A stretch of 64,000 nt of DNA. It comes from Methanomassiliicoccaceae archaeon. Lineage in GTDB: Archaea; Thermoplasmatota; Thermoplasmata; Methanomassiliicoccales; Methanomethylophilaceae. Shown in pieces: positions 234 to 40,627 of the stretch. The position numbers and the translations under genes are program-made. Positions within the stretch are counted from its first letter, which is position 1. Each line of letters starts with the position of its first letter. The stretch is taken from NCBI GenBank assembly GCA_003555025.1, contig PWHV01000011.1:12101-76100 (forward strand), in the 5' to 3' direction. Under the pieces are notes generated by a model, which did not search any database, was not told where the DNA came from, and saw only the letters and a program-made list of their open reading frames with translations.

Positions 234-311
234 AGCGGGGTGGGGTAGCCAGGATATCCCGTCGGGCTCATAACCCGGAGATCGGTCGTTCAAATCGACC
301 CCCCGCTACCA
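234..311 (+). tRNA. initiator tRNA-Met (anticodon CAT) with genomically encoded CCA
   Basis: Hand-folded cloverleaf. Acceptor AGCGGGG (234-240) pairs with CCCCGCT (301-307), with an A1:U72 pair. Anticodon stem carries GGG/CCC and the loop CTCATAA has CAT at 269-271. T arm is GGTCG-TTCAAAT-CGACC. Discriminator is A308 and CCA lies at 309-311. Confidence 0.9.
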
Positions 312-3378: not shown

Positions 3379-4368
3379 TCAGGCCAAGGACTCGGGGCAG
3401 ACGGCCCGCCGCGAGCAGCCGCGGCATTTGCCTGGCCGGTTGTGGTTGCGGTGGGCCTCGCCGCTCTCGCGCAGACGGCGCATCTCCTTCAATTTGAGGA
3501 CCACCAACTCCTCCAGGGACTCGTCGAACTCGATCTCGAACTCCTTCCATCCGTAGCGCAGGACCCCCTTCTCCAGCCTTTGGCCCTCCAGCTCCCCGAC
3601 GATGACGCAATAGGCGCCCAGCTGCAGTATGTGCGAGAACAGAGGCCCCCGTGGCACCCGGCCGGTCTTGATCTCCACTGGCACCAGGTCGTTGTCGCGG
3701 CGCAGCAGGATGTCCGGCCGTCCCGTCAGGCCGTGCCTCTCGGAGACAAGAAGCTCTGACGGGCCCTCGCCGACGTAGACCACTTCCCCTTCCAGGGAGC
3801 TTCTCGTCCGCAGGCCGAGCAGGTCGCCGGTCAGCAGATGGTGCAGCGCGAGTATGACCACGGTTATGATGAACCAGAAGATGGCCAGCAGCAGGTACAA
3901 CGTCCCGTCCACCGCGCCCATCTGTATGAAAGCAATGGTGTTCAGCGCCACCATCATCATCAGTATGCTGATGGCGACAATCGCCATCTCTTGGAAGGTG
4001 TAGCGGTACCAGCGGCCATGCAGGTAGGCGCGGTGCAGAAGGAGAAGGCCGATGGCCAGCCAAACCAACGATATCGCGAAAAGCCACCCGGCCTGCACCC
4101 CCTCCTCAGTGTCCAGGATGCCGATGGTGAAGAGGGCGAGGAGGTTGCCGACCATGGCCACCGAGACGATGTAGGAGAAACGGAGCTCCCATCCTCCCTG
4201 CTCTTTCGTTTTTACGCTCAGGAGGGAGCCCGATATCCGCCGATGCTCATCCGACCCGGCAACGAGCTCATCGTTCTGTGTATCCCCGTCGATGGCCATC
4301 CACCAAGAGAGAGGGCAGTACCCGTACCTCTCCAACTCGCTGGCCGATATCATGTCATTCTTCGACAT
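3379..4368 (-). CDS. Cas4/DUF83-like PD-(D/E)xK Fe-S nuclease with four inserted transmembrane helices
   Basis: ELERYGYCPLSWW (N-terminal Cys), GRPD, VEIK, QLGAY and C-terminal CRGCSRRAVC match Cas4 landmarks. Four hydrophobic segments of about 22 aa lie between the N-terminal Cys helix and the nuclease core. Confidence 0.75.
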   Translation of the reverse strand: MSKNDMISASELERYGYCPLSWWMAIDGDTQNDELVAGSDEHRRISGSLLSVKTKEQGGWELRFSYIVSVAMVGNLLALFTIGILDTEEGVQAGWLFAISLVWLAIGLLLLHRAYLHGRWYRYTFQEMAIVAISILMMMVALNTIAFIQMGAVDGTLYLLLAIFWFIITVVILALHHLLTGDLLGLRTRSSLEGEVVYVGEGPSELLVSERHGLTGRPDILLRRDNDLVPVEIKTGRVPRGPLFSHILQLGAYCVIVGELEGQRLEKGVLRYGWKEFEIEFDESLEELVVLKLKEMRRLRESGEAHRNHNRPGKCRGCSRRAVCPESLA

Positions 4369-5107
4369 TCATATCTAGCAACGACATATCTGTTATAAAG
4401 ACGTCCTCCGGGGGCTCGAGGTCGTCCAAATATCCGAACCAATAGACAACCAGCCCCGGGCCGAAAAGCTCGGTGTAGGGGACCAGCTGCTTGCGGGCAT
4501 TGAAGCGGAACTCCGGGGTGTCGCCGAAGGTGGCCTTGCTCTCGATCCACATGACCTCCATCCCGTTGACCACGACCGGCTCCTCGAAAAGGGAGTCGGG
4601 CGTTTTGGCGTATATCCCGCGCAGGTCCTCCTCGGTGCGGTACTCGACGCCCTGCTCGTCCAGCCATTTCTCGAGGAGCACCTCGCCCCATTCCCCTCGC
4701 TTGCGCTGCTCCTCATTGGCCCAGGGCGAGTAGACGTAGTCGTTGCGGTTTATCTCCTCTATCTCCCGTTTTATGCGCTTGTCCTTGATGTCCTCCTCGC
4801 CGCGGATATGGGACCAGAACTTCTTTCTGTTCCAGCCCATCTCCTCGAAGACGAACATCGCCGTCAGTATGGGGGGGAAGCGCTGGCGCTGCGATATCTC
4901 CATCAGGGTGTGCCCTTGGCGCCAGTCCTTGAGCATCCTGCCGGTGTTGTTCTTGACCTTGTAGAAGCTCTTCTTCACATCCCTGGTCACCTTCTGGGTG
5001 TGGAGGACCATTAAAAGCTCGCGGTCATAGCCCTTTTTGGCCATGCGCTCGACCTCCTCCGGCTTGGAGAGCTTATGGTATATGTCCTTGTAATCTTGGT
5101 ATCTCAT
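4355..5107 (-). CDS. TPD-motif (C15orf41/CDIN1-like) PD-(D/E)xK nuclease family protein
   Basis: AKTPDSLFEEPVVVNGMEVMWIESKATFGD carries the TPD...ExK signature, preceded by a helical HTH-like N-terminal half. Start chosen at MRYQDYK (ATG 5107); the upstream track codons are R/P/S-rich. The stop overlaps the downstream gene by 14 nt. Confidence 0.65.
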   Translation of the reverse strand: MRYQDYKDIYHKLSKPEEVERMAKKGYDRELLMVLHTQKVTRDVKKSFYKVKNNTGRMLKDWRQGHTLMEISQRQRFPPILTAMFVFEEMGWNRKKFWSHIRGEEDIKDKRIKREIEEINRNDYVYSPWANEEQRKRGEWGEVLLEKWLDEQGVEYRTEEDLRGIYAKTPDSLFEEPVVVNGMEVMWIESKATFGDTPEFRFNARKQLVPYTELFGPGLVVYWFGYLDDLEPPEDVFITDMSLLDMNVEE

Positions 5108-5162: not shown

Positions 5163-6506
5163 TCATAATCCGGAGACCAGCTGCTCCACCGCTGCGAAGG
5201 CCACGTCCCTGACCATGGAGGTGGGCGGGCAGTAGGCGTTCTCGTAGCGGGAGAGGAAGTCCTTGGCCCCCACGCCCTCAAGTATGGCGGCGCTGAGCCA
5301 ATTTATCCTTCCGGTGGCATCTTCCCCGGATATTATCTGGGCACCGACCAGCCTGCCGGTGGACCTCTCCGCCAGCACTTTGACGGTCATCGGTTTCCCG
5401 CCCGGGTAGTAACGCGCCCGGGTGAGGCCGCTGGCCACGCCGCTGACAACCTCTATACCGTACCATCCCGCCAGCCCGCTGGATATGCCGGTGCCGGCGA
5501 CCTGCAGATCACCGATGACGCTCACCCAAGGGCTGGTGACGCCTTCATGGAGCGCGTTCCCTCCGGCGGCGTTGATGCCGGCCACACGTCCCTGCCTCAC
5601 CGCGCTCGATCCGAGCTGGCTCATGGTGGGGCCCGGCAGGACCGCCGACTCGCACTGGACCACATCGCCGCAGACGAAGACATTGGGCACCAAGCGGCCC
5701 TTGCGATAGGGCTGCATGGTCGGCGCGACCCTGACCGCGCCGAGGGCCCCGACGTCCAACCCCATCTGCGCTGGGAGCTCCAGGTTCGCCCGGACGCCAG
5801 TGCTGAAAACTGCCATCCCGCAGGGGATCCTCTCGCCGGAGACGGTCACCGACTCCACGCCCTCCTCGCCGTCGACGCTCTGTATGGGCGCCCCCATAAT
5901 GAAACGGACGCCCCGCTCCTCGAGATAGGCGCGCAGACGGTCGGCGAGGTCGGGGTCGAGAATGCGGGGCACCACCTGGTCCATCATCTCGATGACGACG
6001 ACCCCTTTCCCCGATTCCTTCATAGCCAGCGCCATCTCCAGACCGATGACGCCCGCCCCTATTATGGCGACATCGTCAACGGCCGCCATCCCCCTCTCGA
6101 TGGCCTTGCCGTCGTTTATTGTCCGCACCACGTGCACTCCAGGGAGATCGGTGCCCGGTATGGGAGGGATGAACACCTGGCCACCGGTGGCGAGTATCAG
6201 CCGGTCGAAGGACGACTCCTCGCCGCCCGCCCTAAGGACGCAGGACTCGAGGTCTACGGAGGATACCTTGGTGAGGGTCCTGACCTCGATACCCCGCTCC
6301 CGGCGGTAGTACTCCGGGTCATGCATCACGATGCTGTCCCAGTCGGTCCTGCCCTCCAGGACCCAAGGTATGACGCAGGGCGAGTAGGCGATATGCTCGT
6401 CCTCGGTGAAAAGAACTATCTCGGCGCCCGGGTCCTCCTTCCTGGCCGTCGAGGCGGCGGTCATCCCCGCCGCCCCTGAGCCTATGACCGCTATCTTCGC
6501 TGACAT
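5163..6506 (-). CDS. FAD-dependent pyridine nucleotide-disulfide oxidoreductase (NADH oxidase / CoA-disulfide reductase type)
   Basis: MSAKIAVIGSGAAGMTAA forms a dinucleotide fold. AYSPCVIPW is the single redox Cys motif of the Nox/CoADR family. A second GxGxxG (IIGAGVIGLE) is present. The AT-rich TATA-like stretch at 6521-6552 favours ATG 6506 over 6554. Confidence 0.85.
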   Translation of the reverse strand: MSAKIAVIGSGAAGMTAASTARKEDPGAEIVLFTEDEHIAYSPCVIPWVLEGRTDWDSIVMHDPEYYRRERGIEVRTLTKVSSVDLESCVLRAGGEESSFDRLILATGGQVFIPPIPGTDLPGVHVVRTINDGKAIERGMAAVDDVAIIGAGVIGLEMALAMKESGKGVVVIEMMDQVVPRILDPDLADRLRAYLEERGVRFIMGAPIQSVDGEEGVESVTVSGERIPCGMAVFSTGVRANLELPAQMGLDVGALGAVRVAPTMQPYRKGRLVPNVFVCGDVVQCESAVLPGPTMSQLGSSAVRQGRVAGINAAGGNALHEGVTSPWVSVIGDLQVAGTGISSGLAGWYGIEVVSGVASGLTRARYYPGGKPMTVKVLAERSTGRLVGAQIISGEDATGRINWLSAAILEGVGAKDFLSRYENAYCPPTSMVRDVAFAAVEQLVSGL

Positions 6507-6581
6507 GGATTCACCTTCGTCGATTATTGATAATAAAGATATTAAACTATCCATCTTATCGGACGGTCATGGAGGGCCGAT

Positions 6582-11399: not shown

Positions 11400-11846
11400 A
11401 TGGCAGGATACACAGTACAGACCGATCCGGACATAACCGCCAAAGCCATCGGCAAGGAGCTTCCCATATCCCCGCGGCACTCCCGCGAGATATGCAAGAT
11501 GATCCGCGGCATGGACATCGATGAGGCCAAGGGCCTGCTCGGCGATGTCATCGAGATGAAGAAGGCGGTGCCGATGCGCCGTTTCAAGAAGCGCGTGTCC
11601 CACAAGTCCGGGGTCGGCCCCGGCAGGTACCCGCAGAAGGCCGCCAAGGCCATATTGAAGGTGGTGGAGAACGCCGCCGCCAATGCTGAGTACAAGGGCC
11701 TGGAGCCCGACGGCATGGTGCTGGCGGCGGTCTCTTCCTCGTTAGGGAGGACCATACCAGGCCACCGCCCCCGGGCCTACGGCCGCGCCACCCAGTGGAA
11801 TCAGCAGACGGTCAACGTGGAGATCGTGCTGGAGGAGGTAGAGTAA
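11400..11846 (+). CDS. rpl22: 50S ribosomal protein uL22
   Basis: AKAIGKELPISPRHSREICKMIRGM... Operon position. Confidence 0.95.
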   Translation: MAGYTVQTDPDITAKAIGKELPISPRHSREICKMIRGMDIDEAKGLLGDVIEMKKAVPMRRFKKRVSHKSGVGPGRYPQKAAKAILKVVENAAANAEYKGLEPDGMVLAAVSSSLGRTIPGHRPRAYGRATQWNQQTVNVEIVLEEVE

Positions 11847-11848
11847 TC

Positions 11849-12763
11849 ATGGCGTCAGAACGAAGATTCGTCGCCGAGAACGTCCGCAGGGTCCTTCTCA
11901 GGGAGTACCTCATGAAGGAGGTAAGCAGGGCGGGATTCGGCGGATTGGACATACAGAGGACACCCATGGGGACCCGCGTGGTCCTCACAACCGAGAGGCC
12001 CGGGCTGGTCATCGGCAGGCGCGGTCAGACCATCAAGAACCTGACCAGCGCCATCGAGAACAACTTCGGCTTCGACAACCCCCAGATAGAGGTCCAGGAG
12101 GTCGAGGACCCCAACCTCAACGCCCAGATAATGGCGGAGAAGCTGGCCTTCGCTCTCGAGCGTGGATGGCACTTCCGCCGCGCCGGACACTCCTCGGTGC
12201 GCCGCATAATGGAGTCCGGGGCGAGGGGCTGCCAGGTGGTGGTCTCCGGGAAGCTCACCGGACAGAGGCACCGTTGCGAGAAGTTCAAGGACGGCTACAT
12301 CAAGTTCTGCGGCGAGCCCAAGCTGCAGTTCATCGACACCGGCTACGCGGTCGCCAAGCTGAAGCAGGGCGTCATCGGTTGCACTGTGGAGATAATGAGG
12401 CCGGGCTCGACCCTGCCCTCGGACATAACTGTGATCTCCAAGACCGATGCGGCCGAGGCCCTCCCTGAGCTCTTCTCCGCCCCGGCGGAGGACGAAGAGG
12501 GGACGGAAGACGCCTCCCTGGATGTCGACGAGGCCGCGGCGGATGCCGCTATCGAGGCCGAGGAGCCCGCCGCTGAGACCGCCGCTGAGACCGCCGAGGA
12601 GCCCGCCGCTGAGACCGCCGCTGAGACCGCCGAGGAGCCCGCAGAGGGGCCCGATGCGGCCGCCGAGGAGCCTGAAGAAGCTCCCGCGGAGCCCTCCGTA
12701 AAGGCTGAAGAGCCCGCCGAAGGGTCCGATGAGAAGGCCGGGCAGGCGGAGGAGGATCAATGA
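11849..12763 (+). CDS. rps3: 30S ribosomal protein uS3 with acidic repetitive C-terminal tail
   Basis: MASERRFVAENVRRVLLREYL plus a KH domain. ATG 11849 lies 2 nt after the rpl22 TAA. The tail is EEPAAETAAETA repeats. Confidence 0.95.
   Translation: MASERRFVAENVRRVLLREYLMKEVSRAGFGGLDIQRTPMGTRVVLTTERPGLVIGRRGQTIKNLTSAIENNFGFDNPQIEVQEVEDPNLNAQIMAEKLAFALERGWHFRRAGHSSVRRIMESGARGCQVVVSGKLTGQRHRCEKFKDGYIKFCGEPKLQFIDTGYAVAKLKQGVIGCTVEIMRPGSTLPSDITVISKTDAAEALPELFSAPAEDEEGTEDASLDVDEAAADAAIEAEEPAAETAAETAEEPAAETAAETAEEPAEGPDAAAEEPEEAPAEPSVKAEEPAEGSDEKAGQAEEDQ
12560..12643 (+). repeat. 36-nt tandem repeat (2 full copies plus a partial) inside the rps3 3' end
   Basis: gaggagcccgccgctgagaccgccgctgagaccgcc occurs at 12560-12595 and again at 12596-12631, then gaggagcccgca. 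Each unit contains a 12-nt sub-repeat, gccgctgagacc. Confidence 0.9.
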
Positions 12764-38450: not shown

Positions 38451-40627
38451 GGGGATGGATCACCGACTGCCACCCCAGCGACGACGGCCGCGGTGTGGTG
38501 GTATGGATACGTGGCTCCGAGGGGCACCTGCGCCTCGGCTTCCCGCTCCGGCCCTCGTTCTTCGTCTCCGGCGAGGGCCTGGCGTCTCTGTCCCGCGACC
38601 TGGAGGGCTGCGGGGCGACGACCGAGATGCGCCAGGCCCGAACCCGGCTTGGCGGCCCGCGGGAGGACGTCCTCATGGTCAGCGTGGAAGGCTTCCAGAC
38701 CATGGCCCGCCTGGCGAGGGCGGTGGACCGTTGGGGCGGACACCGCGCCTACGAGCTCTACAACGTGGACCTCTCCCCGGCTCAGCGTTTCATGCTCCCG
38801 CGCGGCCTCTTCCCCTTCGGCCTGGTGGAGCATGACGGCCCCCTCCGTGCCATTGATTCGCCGCAGCGCATCAACTACCCGGTCCCGCCGTTGCTCTCCC
38901 TTCGCCTGGAGATCTCCACGGGAACCCCCTTCGACCCGTTGCCTGGAGAGGAGATACGCTCCCTGTCGTTGGACGGCGAGGCCCTGGAGGGCGACGAGGA
39001 GGGGATGCTCCGTCGTCTCTCCGAAGAGCTGGAGCGGAGGGACCCCGACGTGCTGCTGGTGGACAGGGGGGACAAAGGCAGGACCGCCCACCTCCTCGAG
39101 CGCGCCGAGCATCTAGGTCTGGGCCTGGCGCTGGGCAGGGACCGGGGCGTGAGGGCCGGAGGGTCCAAGAGCTACCACAGCTACGGGACGACGGTTTACA
39201 AGCCCCCCGCCCTCAAGCTCAACGGCAGGATCCATCTCGACACCTCCTCGTTCATGCACTCCGAGGGCGGACTGCCGGGGCTGATCGAGCTGTCGCGCCT
39301 CAGCGGCATACCCTTGCAGGACCTCTCTCGCCTGTCGCCCGGAAGCGCCATAAGCGCCATGCAGTCGGACCATGCCCTGAAAGGGGGCCACCTGCTGCGC
39401 TGGAAGAAGAACATGCCCGAGGACTTCAAGACCCTGTCCCACCTGGTGGCCTGCGACCGCGGCGGCATGATACACCAGCCCCGGCCGGGGGTGCACGAGG
39501 ATGTGGTCGGCATGGACTTCTCCTCCATGTACCCTTCCATAATCTCCCGGTTCAACATATCCCCTGAGACCCTGGAGTGCGCCTGTTGCCCGCGGTCAGA
39601 GGCGATCGTCCCCGGTATCGGCCACCGCATATGCCAGAGCCGCCGCGGGCTGTTGCCGGAGGTCATCGGCCCGGTGGTGGAGAGACGGAGGGCCCTGAAG
39701 GCCATGGCCCGCCGCGACCCCCTGCGGGCGGAGTCCTGCCGCCAGCGCTCATCGCTTCTCAAATGGATACTGGTGACCTGCTTCGGTTACACCGGCTACC
39801 GCAACGCCCGCTTCGGCCGCATAGAGTGCCACGAGGCCATAACCGCCTACGGCCGGGAGATAATGTTGCGGGCCTCGGAGATGGCGGCTGCCATGGGCTT
39901 CAAGGTGCTGCACGGGATAGTGGACTCGCTCTGGCTGCAGGGCGGAGGCGATCCGGACAGCTTCGCGGCGGCGGTGATGGAAGAGCACGGCATCCCTCTG
40001 GAGACTGAGGGACGCTACCGCTGGATCGTGTTCCTGCCCAACCTGCACAACGGCGCCGGGGCCCTCAACCGTTATTACGGTCTTTTCGAGGACGGGGAGA
40101 TCAAGATGAGAGGCATCGCCGCCCGCAAGCGGGACTGCGTTCCCATGGTTCGCGATTTCCAGGTCGATGCCTTGGAGATCCTCTCCGAAGCCGACGGCCG
40201 CGAGGGGATGGAGGGGCGGCTGCCGCAGGTCATATCCCTGCTGAACGAGAAGGTCGAGGATCTGCGCCATGGCGCCGCCGGCGCCGAGGACCTCACCGTG
40301 CTGCGCCGCATCTCCCGTCCGCTGGGAGCTTACAGGCAGTTCAACGACGGCCGCGCCGCCGCCGAGCTGATGGCCGCGCACGGCCACGAGCCGCGGCCGG
40401 GGCAGTCGGTGGCCTACATCGTCAGGGACTCGTCGGCCAAGGCCGCCGCCGAGAGGGTGGCGATACCATGGCTGTGGGACGGCGTCTACGATGCCGAAAG
40501 GTACGCCGAGATGCTGCTGCGCGCCGCCGAGGAGATACTGGTCCCGCTGGGGTGGGACCGTGAGCGCCTGCGGCGGGTCACAGGAGGCCAGTCAGGAAGG
40601 GCTGCGCACCAGTGTAGAATAGCATGA
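38447..40627 (+). CDS. polB: family B DNA polymerase, divergent (PolB2-like), exonuclease motifs degenerate
   Basis: Motif A DFSSMYPSII, motif B KWILVTCFGYTGY, motif C region HGIVDSLWL (DTD replaced by IVD). The Exo I position reads LRLEIS instead of FDIET. 726 aa. Confidence 0.85.
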   Translation: MRGWITDCHPSDDGRGVVVWIRGSEGHLRLGFPLRPSFFVSGEGLASLSRDLEGCGATTEMRQARTRLGGPREDVLMVSVEGFQTMARLARAVDRWGGHRAYELYNVDLSPAQRFMLPRGLFPFGLVEHDGPLRAIDSPQRINYPVPPLLSLRLEISTGTPFDPLPGEEIRSLSLDGEALEGDEEGMLRRLSEELERRDPDVLLVDRGDKGRTAHLLERAEHLGLGLALGRDRGVRAGGSKSYHSYGTTVYKPPALKLNGRIHLDTSSFMHSEGGLPGLIELSRLSGIPLQDLSRLSPGSAISAMQSDHALKGGHLLRWKKNMPEDFKTLSHLVACDRGGMIHQPRPGVHEDVVGMDFSSMYPSIISRFNISPETLECACCPRSEAIVPGIGHRICQSRRGLLPEVIGPVVERRRALKAMARRDPLRAESCRQRSSLLKWILVTCFGYTGYRNARFGRIECHEAITAYGREIMLRASEMAAAMGFKVLHGIVDSLWLQGGGDPDSFAAAVMEEHGIPLETEGRYRWIVFLPNLHNGAGALNRYYGLFEDGEIKMRGIAARKRDCVPMVRDFQVDALEILSEADGREGMEGRLPQVISLLNEKVEDLRHGAAGAEDLTVLRRISRPLGAYRQFNDGRAAAELMAAHGHEPRPGQSVAYIVRDSSAKAAAERVAIPWLWDGVYDAERYAEMLLRAAEEILVPLGWDRERLRRVTGGQSGRAAHQCRIA

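What the first reader, a model, noticed from the sequence alone, without database searches (positions are those of the whole stretch)
3379..5107. Translationally coupled nuclease pair: a CDIN1/TPD-like PD-(D/E)xK protein plus a Cas4-like Fe-S nuclease split by four transmembrane helices
Seen in sequence:
- ORF 4355-5107 (-) carries the K-TPD...WIESK signature (AKTPDSLFEEPVVVNGMEVMWIESKATFGD) behind a helical HTH-like N-terminal half.
- Its stop overlaps by 14 nt the start of ORF 3379-4368 (-).
- That second ORF has every Cas4/DUF83 landmark: the N-terminal Cys in ELERYGYCPLSWW, GRPD, VEIK, QLGAY and the C-terminal CRGCSRRAVC. Together these give the 1+3 Cys of the Cas4 [4Fe-4S] site.
- Inserted between the N-terminal Cys helix and the nuclease core are four hydrophobic stretches of about 22 residues: FSYIVSVAMVGNLLALFTIGIL, WLFAISLVWLAIGLLLLH, MAIVAISILMMMVALNTIAFIQ and LYLLLAIFWFIITVVILALHHLL.

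Inference:
- An even number of membrane passes keeps both halves of the cluster site on the same side, so the insertion looks functional rather than a fusion artefact.
- There is no cas1, cas2 or repeat array anywhere in the 64 kb, so this is a solo Cas4.
- I know of no described system that couples a membrane-embedded Cas4 with a CDIN1-family nuclease. Candidate roles are defence, or processing of DNA at the membrane.
Basis: partly seen in the sequence, partly recalled or inferred. Interest (0 to 1): 0.7.

Follow-up and report, generated by a model that had tools for sequence, protein, structure and literature searches.

The report
Membrane-embedded Cas4 beside archaeal CDIN1 homologue
A methanogen chromosome carries a Cas4-type iron-sulfur nuclease interrupted by a four-helix membrane anchor, placed directly after the archaeal counterpart of the human anaemia gene CDIN1; the membrane-bound Cas4 appears undescribed, but it is not shown that the two genes work together.

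Summary
ORF 4355-5107(-) is a strong PF14811/TPD (CDIN1/C15orf41) protein. ORF 3379-4368(-) is a complete Cas4 with a 131-residue insert of four transmembrane helices. With the insert removed in silico, it matches the Cas4 profile end to end. Charge distribution places both nuclease halves in the cytoplasm. There are no cas genes or repeat arrays in the 64 kb, which is a housekeeping region, so this is a solo-Cas4.

The "coupled pair" reading is only partly supported.
- For: every TM-Cas4 found lies directly after a TPD gene on the same strand (6 look-ups starting from Cas4, 51 loci starting from TPD).
- Against: its adjacency to the unrelated glmS is just as invariant (43/43).
- Against: a conserved TATA-like box sits 25-31 nt before the Cas4 start, inside the TPD gene, which suggests its own leaderless transcript.
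- Against: TPD occurs without TM-Cas4 in most Methanomethylophilaceae, in Methanosarcinales and in other lineages. There it neighbours a DNA glycosylase gene or rad50-mre11.

Best reading: a vertically inherited, membrane-anchored, cytoplasm-facing DNA-end nuclease, possibly cooperating with a 3'-5' CDIN1-type exonuclease in genome maintenance. It is a new variant of a known kind and of moderate interest.

The parts
4355..5107 (-). Gene for the archaeal CDIN1/C15orf41-family (PF14811 'TPD') protein, 250 aa
   Evidence: ORF. Pfam TPD E 8.3e-45. AF2 model pLDDT 96. 1278 cluster representatives with E<=1e-3 in the exhaustive search.
4652..5107 (-). TPD residues 1-152: all-helical N-terminal half, HTH-like by analogy with human CDIN1
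   Evidence: DSSP on the AF2 model gives helices only up to residue 152. No HTH Pfam match. The two-HTH description of human CDIN1 comes from PMC7261414.
4358..4651 (-). TPD residues 153-250: PD-(D/E)xK core with D171 (codon 4595-4597), E189 (4541-4543) and K191 (4535-4537). E142, in the preceding helix, is also invariant.
   Evidence: E142, P170, D171, W187 and K191 are invariant in 48 diverse homologues; position 189 is E or D. The D-to-E spacing of 18 equals that of human D196/E214 (PMC13463051).
4355..4368 (-). 14-nt overlap between the TPD stop and the Cas4TM start
   Evidence: The same -14 overlap occurs in L007-L010, -4 in L011/L090 and -22 in L012/L091.
4393..4399 (-). TTTATAA, a TATA-like box at -31..-25 from the Cas4TM ATG, inside the TPD coding sequence
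   Evidence: Sequence. It is built from rare codons: TTT is 2% of Phe codons and ACA is 6% of Thr codons. The AT fraction peaks at 0.81 at -30..-26 across 43 distinct loci. Promoter function is inferred.
3379..4368 (-). Gene for the membrane-embedded solo-Cas4 (Cas4TM), 329 aa
4195..4368 (-). Cas4TM residues 1-58: N-terminal Cas4 module with cluster ligand C18 and metal-ligand candidate H42
   Evidence: C18 and H42 are invariant. The N-terminal stretch aligns weakly with Cas4 chain 8d3l_I (2.2 bits). It is covered by the cas4 profile once the insert is removed.
3802..4194 (-). Cas4TM residues 59-189: 131-aa insert with four TM helices. TM1 is 4111-4173, TM2 4030-4083, TM3 3919-3987, TM4 3832-3897. 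The insert looks like two homologous 2-TM hairpins.
   Evidence: Hydropathy in 25 homologues. Positive-inside charge pattern. AF2 helices at 33-84, 90-117, 125-148 and 155-190. No family match for the insert alone. hhalign of hairpin 1 against hairpin 2 gives 95.5% probability.
3382..3801 (-). Cas4TM residues 190-329: RecB-like nuclease core (D219, E232, K234, Q249, Y253) with C-terminal cluster ligands C315, C318, C324 and the family-specific HRNH motif at 306-309
   Evidence: Invariant columns. Profile alignment to SSO0001 4ic1 at 1.8e-6. Foldseek top hits are Cas4 8d3l/7mi4, MGME1, 4ic1 and Dna2.

Best explanation
Shown:
- The locus holds two chromosomal, vertically inherited nuclease genes of a Methanomassiliicoccales methanogen.
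- The downstream gene encodes a canonical-size solo-Cas4 ([4Fe-4S] RecB-like nuclease). A 131-residue module of four transmembrane helices has been inserted between the N-terminal Cys/His helix and the beta-core.
- The predicted topology is N-in/C-in. The reassembled nuclease therefore sits directly on the cytoplasmic face of the membrane, held by two helices that run continuously out of TM1 and TM4.
- The upstream gene encodes the archaeal orthologue of CDIN1, with an intact E...PD...ExK site.

Inferred mechanism:
- Cas4TM works as a metal-dependent DNA-end nuclease. Characterised Cas4 proteins are 5'->3' ssDNA exonucleases or dsDNA nucleases.
- Its action is confined to nucleic acid that touches or enters at the membrane. 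This would also keep a potentially toxic nuclease away from the nucleoid.
- The CDIN1 orthologue supplies an activity of opposite polarity. [quoted passage not shown]
- Together the two would trim both strands or ends of a substrate, in genome maintenance rather than in CRISPR adaptation or a dedicated defence island.

Expression: the Cas4TM gene probably has its own leaderless promoter inside the 3' end of the TPD gene, so expression is not simply translationally coupled.

My probabilities:
- Architecture and topology: about 0.9.
- Active membrane-face DNA nuclease: about 0.7.
- Real functional partnership with TPD: about 0.4.
- Maintenance or repair rather than defence: about 0.5.
For: Cas4 identity and clean insertion.

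TM helices and topology.

TPD identity and conserved active site.

Adjacency:
- All six look-ups that started from a Cas4TM protein found TPD immediately upstream.
- 51 loci found starting from TPD carry Cas4TM directly downstream; no Cas4TM match lay anywhere else in a locus. In the 52 complete pairs assembled from all loci fetched up to then the gap is -22 to +174 nt.

Cellular and housekeeping character:
- The window is a core region with SecY, PolB, exosome, proteasome and Hdr/Mvh genes.
- GC3 is the same as in neighbouring genes.
- Both proteins are absent from IMG/VR.

Repair flavour of TPD neighbourhoods elsewhere:
- An HhH-GPD glycosylase gene lies directly upstream of TPD in three Methanosarcinaceae loci, overlapping its start by 4-8 nt in two of them (L173, L176).
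- TPD is convergent with mre11-rad50 in Methanosarcina and Methanolapillus.

Enzymology from the literature:
- Cas4 5'->3' exonuclease (PMC5704561).
- M. mazei solo-Cas4 is a dsDNA nuclease and its overexpression slows growth (PMC12501428).
- Human CDIN1 is a 3'-5' RNA exonuclease that needs a partner for full activity (PMC13463051).
Against: - Cas4TM-glmS convergent adjacency is equally invariant (43/43). Adjacency therefore does not by itself show function.
- One lineage has TPD convergent directly with glmS and no Cas4TM (L155).
- A conserved TATA-like element precedes the Cas4TM start. This suggests a separate transcript.
- TPD persists without Cas4TM in 65 of 75 informative GTDB species loci and in Methanosarcinales.
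- No TPD residues could be tied to the presence of the partner.
- Human CDIN1 does not cut DNA, and Cas4 is not known to cut RNA, so a shared substrate is speculative.
- No activity, localisation or expression data exist.
- TM prediction rests on hydropathy, charge bias and an AF2 model of moderate confidence (pLDDT 59-79 in the TM region). No dedicated TM predictor was used.
Confidence: 0.42

Rival explanations
1. Neighbours by conserved synteny only. Cas4TM is a lineage-specific membrane-anchored solo-Cas4 that acts alone. The CDIN1 orthologue acts independently, as it must in the many archaea that lack Cas4TM. The block TPD > Cas4TM > <glmS <glmU is simply a stable piece of chromosome.
For: - Cas4TM-glmS adjacency is 43/43.
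- TPD is convergent directly with glmS, without Cas4TM, in L155.
- The Cas4TM gene has its own TATA-like box.
- TPD occurs without Cas4TM in most Methanomethylophilaceae, in Methanosarcinales and in other lineages.
- No conservation signature specific to paired TPDs was found.
Against: - The genes are on the same strand, with overlaps of 4-22 nt in three sub-lineages and gaps of 65 nt or less in nearly all others.
- No Cas4TM was ever found apart from TPD, although the context upstream of TPD varies (oxr directly upstream in 7 loci, other genes in 34).
- Both are nucleases, and CDIN1-type enzymes are known to depend on a partner.
Confidence: 0.35
2. An innate defence or DNA-entry module. The membrane-anchored Cas4 destroys or processes linear foreign DNA (virus, plasmid, transforming DNA) as it enters the cell, with TPD removing RNA or hybrid strands.
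For: - The membrane position of the nuclease.
- A defence role for solo-Cas4 proteins has been proposed, and Argonaute-associated Cas4 (ACE1) acts in defence.
- Cas4TM is missing next to TPD in the host-associated clade, a pattern typical of accessory functions.
Against: - The surroundings are not a defence island.
- Inheritance looks strictly vertical within a fixed syntenic block.
- TPD matches no PADLOC model.
- Neither protein occurs in viral contigs.
- M. mazei solo-Cas4 does not respond to virus challenge.
Confidence: 0.13
3. A membrane-tethered RNA-processing unit, analogous to RNase Y or RNase E. TPD is the RNA exonuclease and Cas4TM is mainly its membrane anchor.
For: - Human CDIN1 is RNA-specific.
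- In one lineage, TPD sits at the head of the proteasome-exosome gene cluster (L089).
Against: - All Cas4 catalytic and cluster residues are invariant, so Cas4TM is not a mere anchor.
- Characterised Cas4 enzymes are DNases.
- No interaction has been shown.
Confidence: 0.07
4. An ordinary CRISPR adaptation Cas4 that serves a CRISPR-cas locus elsewhere in the genome.
For: It passes the TIGR00372 equivalog cut-off. Databases name its homologues 'CRISPR-associated protein Cas4'.
Against: - No cas1, cas2 or repeat array is in the 64 kb window, or among the called genes within about 4-6 kb on either side of the gene in the contigs returned by six look-ups.
- The gene always sits in the same housekeeping block.
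- A membrane tether is hard to reconcile with assembly onto Cas1-Cas2.
Confidence: 0.03

Closest known systems
Solo-Cas4 of archaea (e.g. Methanosarcina mazei solo-Cas4, PMC12501428; the solo-Cas4 branches of Hudaiberdiev et al. 2017, PMC5704561)
   Same: It is a Cas4-family Fe-S nuclease encoded away from cas genes. It is vertically inherited within an order and located in a housekeeping context. All catalytic and cluster residues are present.
   Different: It carries a 131-aa four-TM insert within the fold, whereas described solo-Cas4 proteins are soluble oligomers. It also has a family-specific HRNH motif and a fixed position after a CDIN1-family gene.
CRISPR-associated Cas4 (SSO0001 4ic1; type I-C Cas4 8d3l; Cas4-Cas1 fusion 7mi4)
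   Same: These are the best sequence-profile and fold matches. The same motifs are found: N-terminal Cys, His, D, ExK, QxxxY and C-terminal CxxC...C.
   Different: There is no cas1, cas2 or array, and the protein is membrane-embedded.
Human CDIN1 (C15orf41) with Codanin-1
   Same: It belongs to the same Pfam family at E 8.3e-45. The PD...ExK spacing and the helical N-half are the same. In both cases a nuclease may need a partner. Archaeal orthologues were already noted in the literature.
   Different: Archaea have no Codanin-1. The neighbouring gene here encodes a second nuclease, not a scaffold. The substrate of the archaeal enzyme is unknown.
Membrane-tethered nucleases of bacteria (RNase Y, RNase E, ComEC); this is a functional analogy only
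   Same: A nucleic-acid-cleaving domain is held at the cytoplasmic membrane.
   Different: The folds are unrelated. Those proteins use terminal anchors or channels, whereas here the anchor is inserted inside the catalytic fold. The comparison rests on general knowledge and on titles seen; it was not tested.

Membership tests
Cas4 (TIGR00372 / PF01930 DUF83) | Profile score above the curated cut-off | tested here: met
   TIGR00372 scores 65.4 bits against a cut-off of 65 for the native protein. With the insert excised it scores 71.0 bits over profile positions 2-179 of 180. PF01930 scores 28.5 bits against 22.7.
Cas4 (TIGR00372 / PF01930 DUF83) | Four Cys ligands of the [4Fe-4S] cluster (one N-terminal, three C-terminal) | tested here: met
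   C18, C315, C318 and C324 are invariant in 25 homologues. The C-terminal three lie in the stretch aligned with the cysteine-containing C-termini of 4ic1 and 8d3l. Cluster binding itself was not tested.
Cas4 (TIGR00372 / PF01930 DUF83) | RecB-type catalytic motifs (His, Asp, Glu-x-Lys, Q-h-x-x-Y) | tested here: met
   H42, D219, K234, Q249 and Y253 are invariant, and position 232 is E or D. They align to SSO0001 and type I-C Cas4. The SSO0001 metal ligands are cited.
Cas4 (TIGR00372 / PF01930 DUF83) | Cas4/RecB-nuclease fold | tested here: met
   Foldseek top hits are 8d3l, 7mi4, MGME1, 4ic1 and Dna2, with E 1e-5 to 1e-3. The nuclease core of the model has pLDDT 80-95.
Cas4 (TIGR00372 / PF01930 DUF83) | Metal-dependent nuclease activity | not testable with these tools
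   Needs biochemistry.
CRISPR-associated Cas4 (adaptation module) | Adjacent to, or fused with, cas1/cas2 and near a CRISPR array | tested here: not met
   No array was found. No cas genes are among the ORFs of 200 aa or more tested between 20 and 62 kb. None is in the related loci.
CDIN1 / C15orf41 (PF14811 TPD) | Pfam profile above the gathering score | tested here: met
   152.5 bits against 27, covering profile positions 2-136 of 138.
CDIN1 / C15orf41 (PF14811 TPD) | PD-(D/E)xK catalytic residues (human D196, E214, K216) | tested here: met
   D171, E189 and K191 have the same 18-residue D-E spacing. D171 and K191 are invariant and 189 is E or D in 48 homologues. No direct alignment to the human sequence was made.
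CDIN1 / C15orf41 (PF14811 TPD) | N-terminal helical (two HTH-like) domain | tested here: inconclusive
   The AF2 model is all-helical for residues 1-152 at pLDDT above 94. There is no HTH family hit and no significant PDB fold match.
CDIN1 / C15orf41 (PF14811 TPD) | 3'-5' RNA exonuclease activity with a partner protein | not testable with these tools
   Known only for the human enzyme (PMC13463051).
Known anti-phage defence systems (PADLOC) | Both components match models of one described system and lie in a defence context | tested here: not met
   Cas4TM matches Cas4, Cas4-Cas1 fusion and DruK (PD-(D/E)XK nuclease) models only through its nuclease core, and TPD matches nothing. The neighbourhood is housekeeping.
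Translationally coupled operon pair | Overlapping or abutting ORFs, no internal promoter, co-occurrence across genomes | tested here: inconclusive
   The ORFs overlap here and in close relatives but are 8-174 nt apart elsewhere. A conserved TATA-like box precedes the Cas4TM start. Cas4TM always occurs with TPD, but TPD often occurs alone.

The most novel reading that the evidence does not exclude
Characterised Cas4 proteins form ring-shaped oligomers. If Cas4TM does the same, its many TM hairpins could build a membrane-embedded ring with the nuclease toroid directly beneath it. That would be a portal that receives, threads and trims nucleic acid at the membrane: for DNA uptake, for destroying entering DNA, or for clearing DNA trapped at division. 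In this reading the CDIN1 orthologue is its obligate partner. The pair would then be the first prokaryotic partner system for CDIN1 and a tractable model for the ancestral function of a human disease nuclease.
Probability: 0.1. Interest if true: 0.85.

Novelty: new variant of a known kind. Interest (0 to 1): 0.5.

Why it matters
- The function of solo-Cas4 proteins, present in most archaea, is an open question, and no partner or cellular location is known for them. A lineage in which the enzyme is built into the membrane gives a concrete, testable clue about where at least one solo-Cas4 works.
- The CDIN1 family has only just been shown to be a nuclease in humans, where it depends on a partner. 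Archaeal orthologues are uncharacterised. Their gene neighbours recorded here (TM-Cas4, an HhH-GPD glycosylase, mre11-rad50) point to nucleic-acid repair and suggest simple experimental systems.
- An insertion of a four-TM module inside, rather than at the end of, an Fe-S nuclease fold is also an unusual piece of protein architecture.

Tried and rejected
1. Range of Cas4TM outside Methanomassiliicoccales. This could not be settled. The homology search lists only the best 120 hits, all of them this family. The single genome-collection and single metagenome scans each returned the 80 closest loci.
2. First alignment for the locus scan (A2).
3. Viral contigs. Neither protein was found.
4. Signature of partner dependence in TPD. 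Paired and unpaired TPDs were compared column by column. Only 9 scattered columns differ and there is no clear patch, so the result is uninformative.
5. PDB relatives of TPD. Sequence search found nothing, and the best fold match has E 0.1 (Rpb5 N-domain, DdmD nuclease, AF1548). No solved CDIN1 structure was available to compare.
6. Linker-fused TPD-Cas4TM chain for AlphaFold. Paired sequences were prepared but not submitted, because the tool returns neither PAE nor coordinates and an interface could not have been judged.
7. Bacterial-type promoter and terminator scan. It is not meaningful for an archaeon and was ignored.
8. Family match for the TM insert. None was found in Pfam or NCBIfam. 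The weak TssN and DUF4396 hits on the full-length protein were dismissed.
9. Whether host-associated genomes keep Cas4TM elsewhere. This could not be tested directly. Loss is inferred only from the absence of such sequences among the 120 best hits.
Full report
**1. The observation**

Both ORFs are present as described. ORF A (4355-5107, minus strand, 250 aa) starts at ATG 5107 and ends with TGA 4355-4357. ORF B (3379-4368, minus strand, 329 aa) starts at ATG 4368, giving a 14-nt overlap. An in-frame ATG six codons further in could also serve as a start. However, the closest relative has Leu at that position and the same N-terminus, so 4368 is the likely start. All quoted motifs are in the translations.

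**2. Identity of ORF A**

- Pfam PF14811 (TPD, the C15orf41/CDIN1 family) matches at E 8.3e-45 over residues 109-240.
- An exhaustive profile-free search found 1278 cluster representatives at E<=1e-3.
- In 48 diverse homologues, E142, P170, D171, W187 and K191 are invariant, and position 189 is E or D. This is an intact E...PD...(E/D)xK site. Its D-to-E spacing of 18 residues equals that of human CDIN1 D196/E214 (PMC13463051).
- An AlphaFold2 model is very confident (pLDDT 96). It has an all-helical N-half (residues 1-152) and an alpha/beta C-half.
- The model has no significant PDB neighbour. The best hits, at E about 0.1, are distant PD-(D/E)xK-like folds.
- NCBI already names homologues 'C15orf41 family protein', and orthologues in Euryarchaeota have been noted (PMC7092493). 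None appears to have been studied.

**3. Identity of ORF B**

- The Cas4 and PDDEXK_1 profiles match only residues 207-325.
- An alignment of 25 full-length homologues (36-83% identity) shows invariant C18, H42, D219, K234, Q249, Y253, C315, C318 and C324, with E or D at 232. That is the full set of Cas4 cluster ligands and RecB-type catalytic residues.
- A profile of the family finds SSO0001 (4ic1, 1.8e-6), type I-C Cas4 (8d3l) and the Cas4-Cas1 fusion (7mi4). The core motifs are in register, and the N-terminal Cys/His stretch also aligns, though weakly (2.2 bits), with 8d3l.
- The AF2 model has pLDDT 75 overall and 80-95 in the core. Its best fold matches are Cas4, MGME1, SSO0001 and Dna2.
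- Decisive test: deleting residues 59-189 in silico leaves a 198-aa protein that aligns with TIGR00372 over positions 2-179 of 180. The score rises from 65.4 to 71.0 bits against a cut-off of 65. ORF B is therefore a normal-sized Cas4 carrying one clean internal insertion. The insert alone matches no Pfam or NCBIfam family.

**4. The insert**

- Four segments reach Kyte-Doolittle means above 2 in all 25 homologues.
- AF2 predicts four long helices at 33-84, 90-117, 125-148 and 155-190. The first and last run continuously into the soluble parts.
- Mean K+R counts are 3.8 before TM1, 0.4 in loop 1-2, 3.6 in loop 2-3, 0.2 in loop 3-4 and 4.0 after TM4. This is a clear positive-inside pattern for an N-in/C-in topology. 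Both halves of the nuclease, and hence the Fe-S site, face the cytoplasm.
- The two hairpins resemble each other (hhalign 95.5%, E 1.4e-8). This suggests an internal duplication, with the caveat that TM segments inflate such scores.
No dedicated TM predictor was available.

**5. Context in the window**

- Flanking genes are glmU and glmS (convergent, downstream) and a pyridine-nucleotide disulfide oxidoreductase (upstream, same strand). Beyond the oxidoreductase, on the opposite strand, lie the ribosomal protein genes.
- Further on lie SecY, Cbf5, methyltransferase/corrinoid genes, PolB, adenine deaminase, TyrRS, the exosome-proteasome cluster, HdrA2 and Mvh-type hydrogenase genes.
- There is no CRISPR-like repeat, no Rfam CRISPR family and no cas gene among the ORFs of 200 aa or more tested between 20 and 62 kb.
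- GC3 of the two genes (0.83-0.84) equals that of their neighbours.
- The closest public contig is a soda-lake sediment MAG of the Methanomassiliicoccales (L007).
- This is a solo-Cas4 in a core chromosomal region, not a defence island. Neither protein was found in IMG/VR, and TPD matches no PADLOC model.

**6. Is the pair conserved?**

Starting from Cas4TM proteins:
- Six look-ups were made: M. luminyensis P0092, P0049, P0119, P0008, P0010 and P0053.
- All showed the order TPD > Cas4TM > <glmS <glmU.

Starting from TPD:

| Collection | With Cas4TM directly downstream | Without, 1100 nt or more of downstream sequence available | Too short to tell |
|---|---|---|---|
| GTDB species loci (80) | 10 | 65 | 5 |
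| Metagenome loci (80) | 41 | 27 | 12 |

- The 65 species loci without Cas4TM are mostly host-associated Methanomethylophilaceae.
- In 52 complete pairs the gap is -22 to +174 nt. Overlaps are restricted to the window's clade and its near relatives.
- No Cas4TM was ever seen away from TPD.

Three observations weaken the case for functional coupling.
- (a) Cas4TM is just as invariably followed by convergent glmS (43/43). One lineage has TPD convergent directly with glmS and no Cas4TM (L155). The region is therefore a stable syntenic block irrespective of function.
- (b) TTTATAA lies at -31..-25 from the Cas4TM ATG (window 4393-4399), inside the TPD gene. It is written with codons that are rare in this genome (TTT 2% of Phe, ACA 6% of Thr). 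Only 0.55% of coding 8-mers in the window are this AT-rich. Across 43 distinct loci the AT fraction peaks at 0.81 in the -30..-26 bin, against 0.42-0.49 further upstream, and visible TATA-like motifs are present whether the element falls in the spacer or in the TPD coding sequence. By position this looks like an archaeal TATA box for a leaderless Cas4TM mRNA (inference). 'Translationally coupled' is therefore not the best description.
- (c) TPD is much more widespread than Cas4TM.

**7. TPD in other archaea**

- In Methanosarcina and Methanolapillus the TPD gene is convergent with rad50 (about 1030 aa, CPTC hook) and a Metallophos (Mre11-type) gene.
- In three Methanosarcinaceae loci (Methanolobus, Methanococcoides and one unnamed contig) an HhH-GPD DNA glycosylase gene lies directly upstream of TPD; in L173 and L176 it overlaps the TPD start by 4-8 nt.
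- In another lineage a TPD with a long basic tail precedes the proteasome-exosome cluster (L089).
- Several TPDs carry Lys/Arg/Gly-rich tails.
- No Cas4 domain occurs among the neighbours in the 27 metagenome loci without Cas4TM.
- These varied but repeatedly repair-flavoured neighbours suggest that the archaeal CDIN1 orthologue works on nucleic-acid ends in genome maintenance. This is guilt by association, not proof.

**8. Mechanism**

Established enzymology:
- Cas4 proteins are metal-dependent Fe-S nucleases, 5'->3' on ssDNA (PMC5704561).
- The M. mazei solo-Cas4 is a large soluble oligomer that cuts dsDNA and slows growth when overproduced (PMC12501428).
[quoted passage not shown] It binds but does not cut DNA, and it needs Codanin-1 for full activity (PMC13463051).

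My best reading is that Cas4TM is an active DNA-end nuclease fixed to the cytoplasmic face of the membrane. That restricts it to DNA that contacts or crosses the membrane. The adjacent CDIN1 orthologue may add an activity of opposite polarity.

- Shown: identities, intact active sites, the insertion, the likely topology, the chromosomal vertical context and the neighbourhood statistics.
- Inferred: enzyme activity, membrane localisation in vivo, the promoter, any cooperation between the two proteins, and the biological role.
- I put functional partnership at about 0.4 and the synteny-only rival at about 0.35.

**9. Comparison with what is known, and novelty**

- The protein meets every sequence and fold criterion of the Cas4 family that could be tested. 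It fails the CRISPR-association criterion, so it is a solo-Cas4.
- ORF A is a member of the CDIN1/TPD family.
- The phylogenomic survey of Cas4 does not mention transmembrane forms: there are no occurrences of the word, and the single 'membrane' refers to another gene.
- Searches for Methanomassiliicoccales plus Cas4, for Cas4-like plus transmembrane, and for PF14811/C15orf41 family found nothing relevant.
- Within the limits of that library, the membrane-embedded Cas4 and its fixed position after a CDIN1 orthologue are undescribed.
- I rate the finding a new variant of a known kind, with moderate interest (0.5). The architecture is unusual and gives a handle on two poorly understood nuclease families. 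It is, however, confined to part of one archaeal order, and the proposed coupling remains unproven.

Noticed in passing
window 4393-4399 (-): TTTATAA lies 25-31 nt upstream of the Cas4TM start, inside the TPD coding sequence, and is built from rare codons. An AT peak at the same position is conserved in 43 related loci. It is probably a TATA box for a leaderless transcript.
   Followed up: yes
window 5163-6554 (-) and loci L007-L086: A pyridine-nucleotide disulfide oxidoreductase gene (CoA-disulfide reductase/NADH-oxidase type) ends 13-55 nt before the TPD start. This holds in the window and in about 70 Methanomethylophilaceae loci, with or without Cas4TM. It may form an operon with TPD.
   Followed up: partly
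L173:5384-6004, L175:3374-3994, L176:3367-4008: In Methanolobus/Methanococcoides-type genomes an HhH-GPD (EndoIII-like) DNA glycosylase gene lies directly upstream of the TPD gene, overlapping its start by 4-8 nt in L173 and L176. In L175 the gene was not called by the source annotation.
   Followed up: partly
L118:7915-12893, L121, L128, L146, L150, L153, L165, L174: In Methanosarcina and Methanolapillus the TPD gene is convergent with a rad50-like gene (about 1030-1160 aa). In Methanosarcina (L118) the next gene is Metallophos (Mre11-type); the corresponding 567-aa product in L174 has no Pfam hit.
   Followed up: partly
proteins P0242-P0252; L127:6992-8230: Many TPD homologues from other lineages carry C-terminal tails of 70-160 residues. 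The tails are low-complexity and rich in Lys, Arg, Gly and Pro. They may bind nucleic acid and so substitute for a partner protein.
   Followed up: no
L052, L055, L059, L083: GTDB records titled Lachnospiraceae bacterium, Bacteroides ovatus and Bifidobacteriaceae bacterium contain contigs with the archaeal oxidoreductase-TPD arrangement. These are apparently mis-binned Methanomethylophilaceae contigs.
   Followed up: no
window 3802-4194 (-): The two TM hairpins of the insert are similar to each other (hhalign 95.5%, E 1.4e-8), which suggests an internal duplication. The compositional bias of TM helices may inflate the score.
   Followed up: partly
window 234-308 (+): A tRNA gene (Rfam, 56 bits) lies inside the mechanically listed ORF 191-1585. 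The real glmU-like gene must therefore start further downstream, around MQAIILAAGHG.
   Followed up: no
window 12533-12673 (+): A 12-nt periodic repeat encodes an Ala/Glu/Pro/Thr-rich acidic tail at the C-terminus of ORF 11795-12763, which lies among the ribosomal protein genes.
   Followed up: no
window 38627-40627 (+): The family-B DNA polymerase ORF is only 666 aa. It scores below the curated cut-off of its best NCBIfam model (461 against 516 bits) and the match starts at profile position 70. It may be a short, split or divergent PolB.
   Followed up: no
L084:6001-8751 compared with L090: In a host-associated Methanomethylophilaceae chromosome, TPD is followed by GTP cyclohydrolase (GCHY-1, minus strand), RNase HII and SCP2. 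This is the far end of the block that follows glmU in relatives carrying Cas4TM. The Cas4TM-glmS-glmU segment was therefore removed or relocated by a rearrangement whose breakpoint lies right after TPD.
   Followed up: partly
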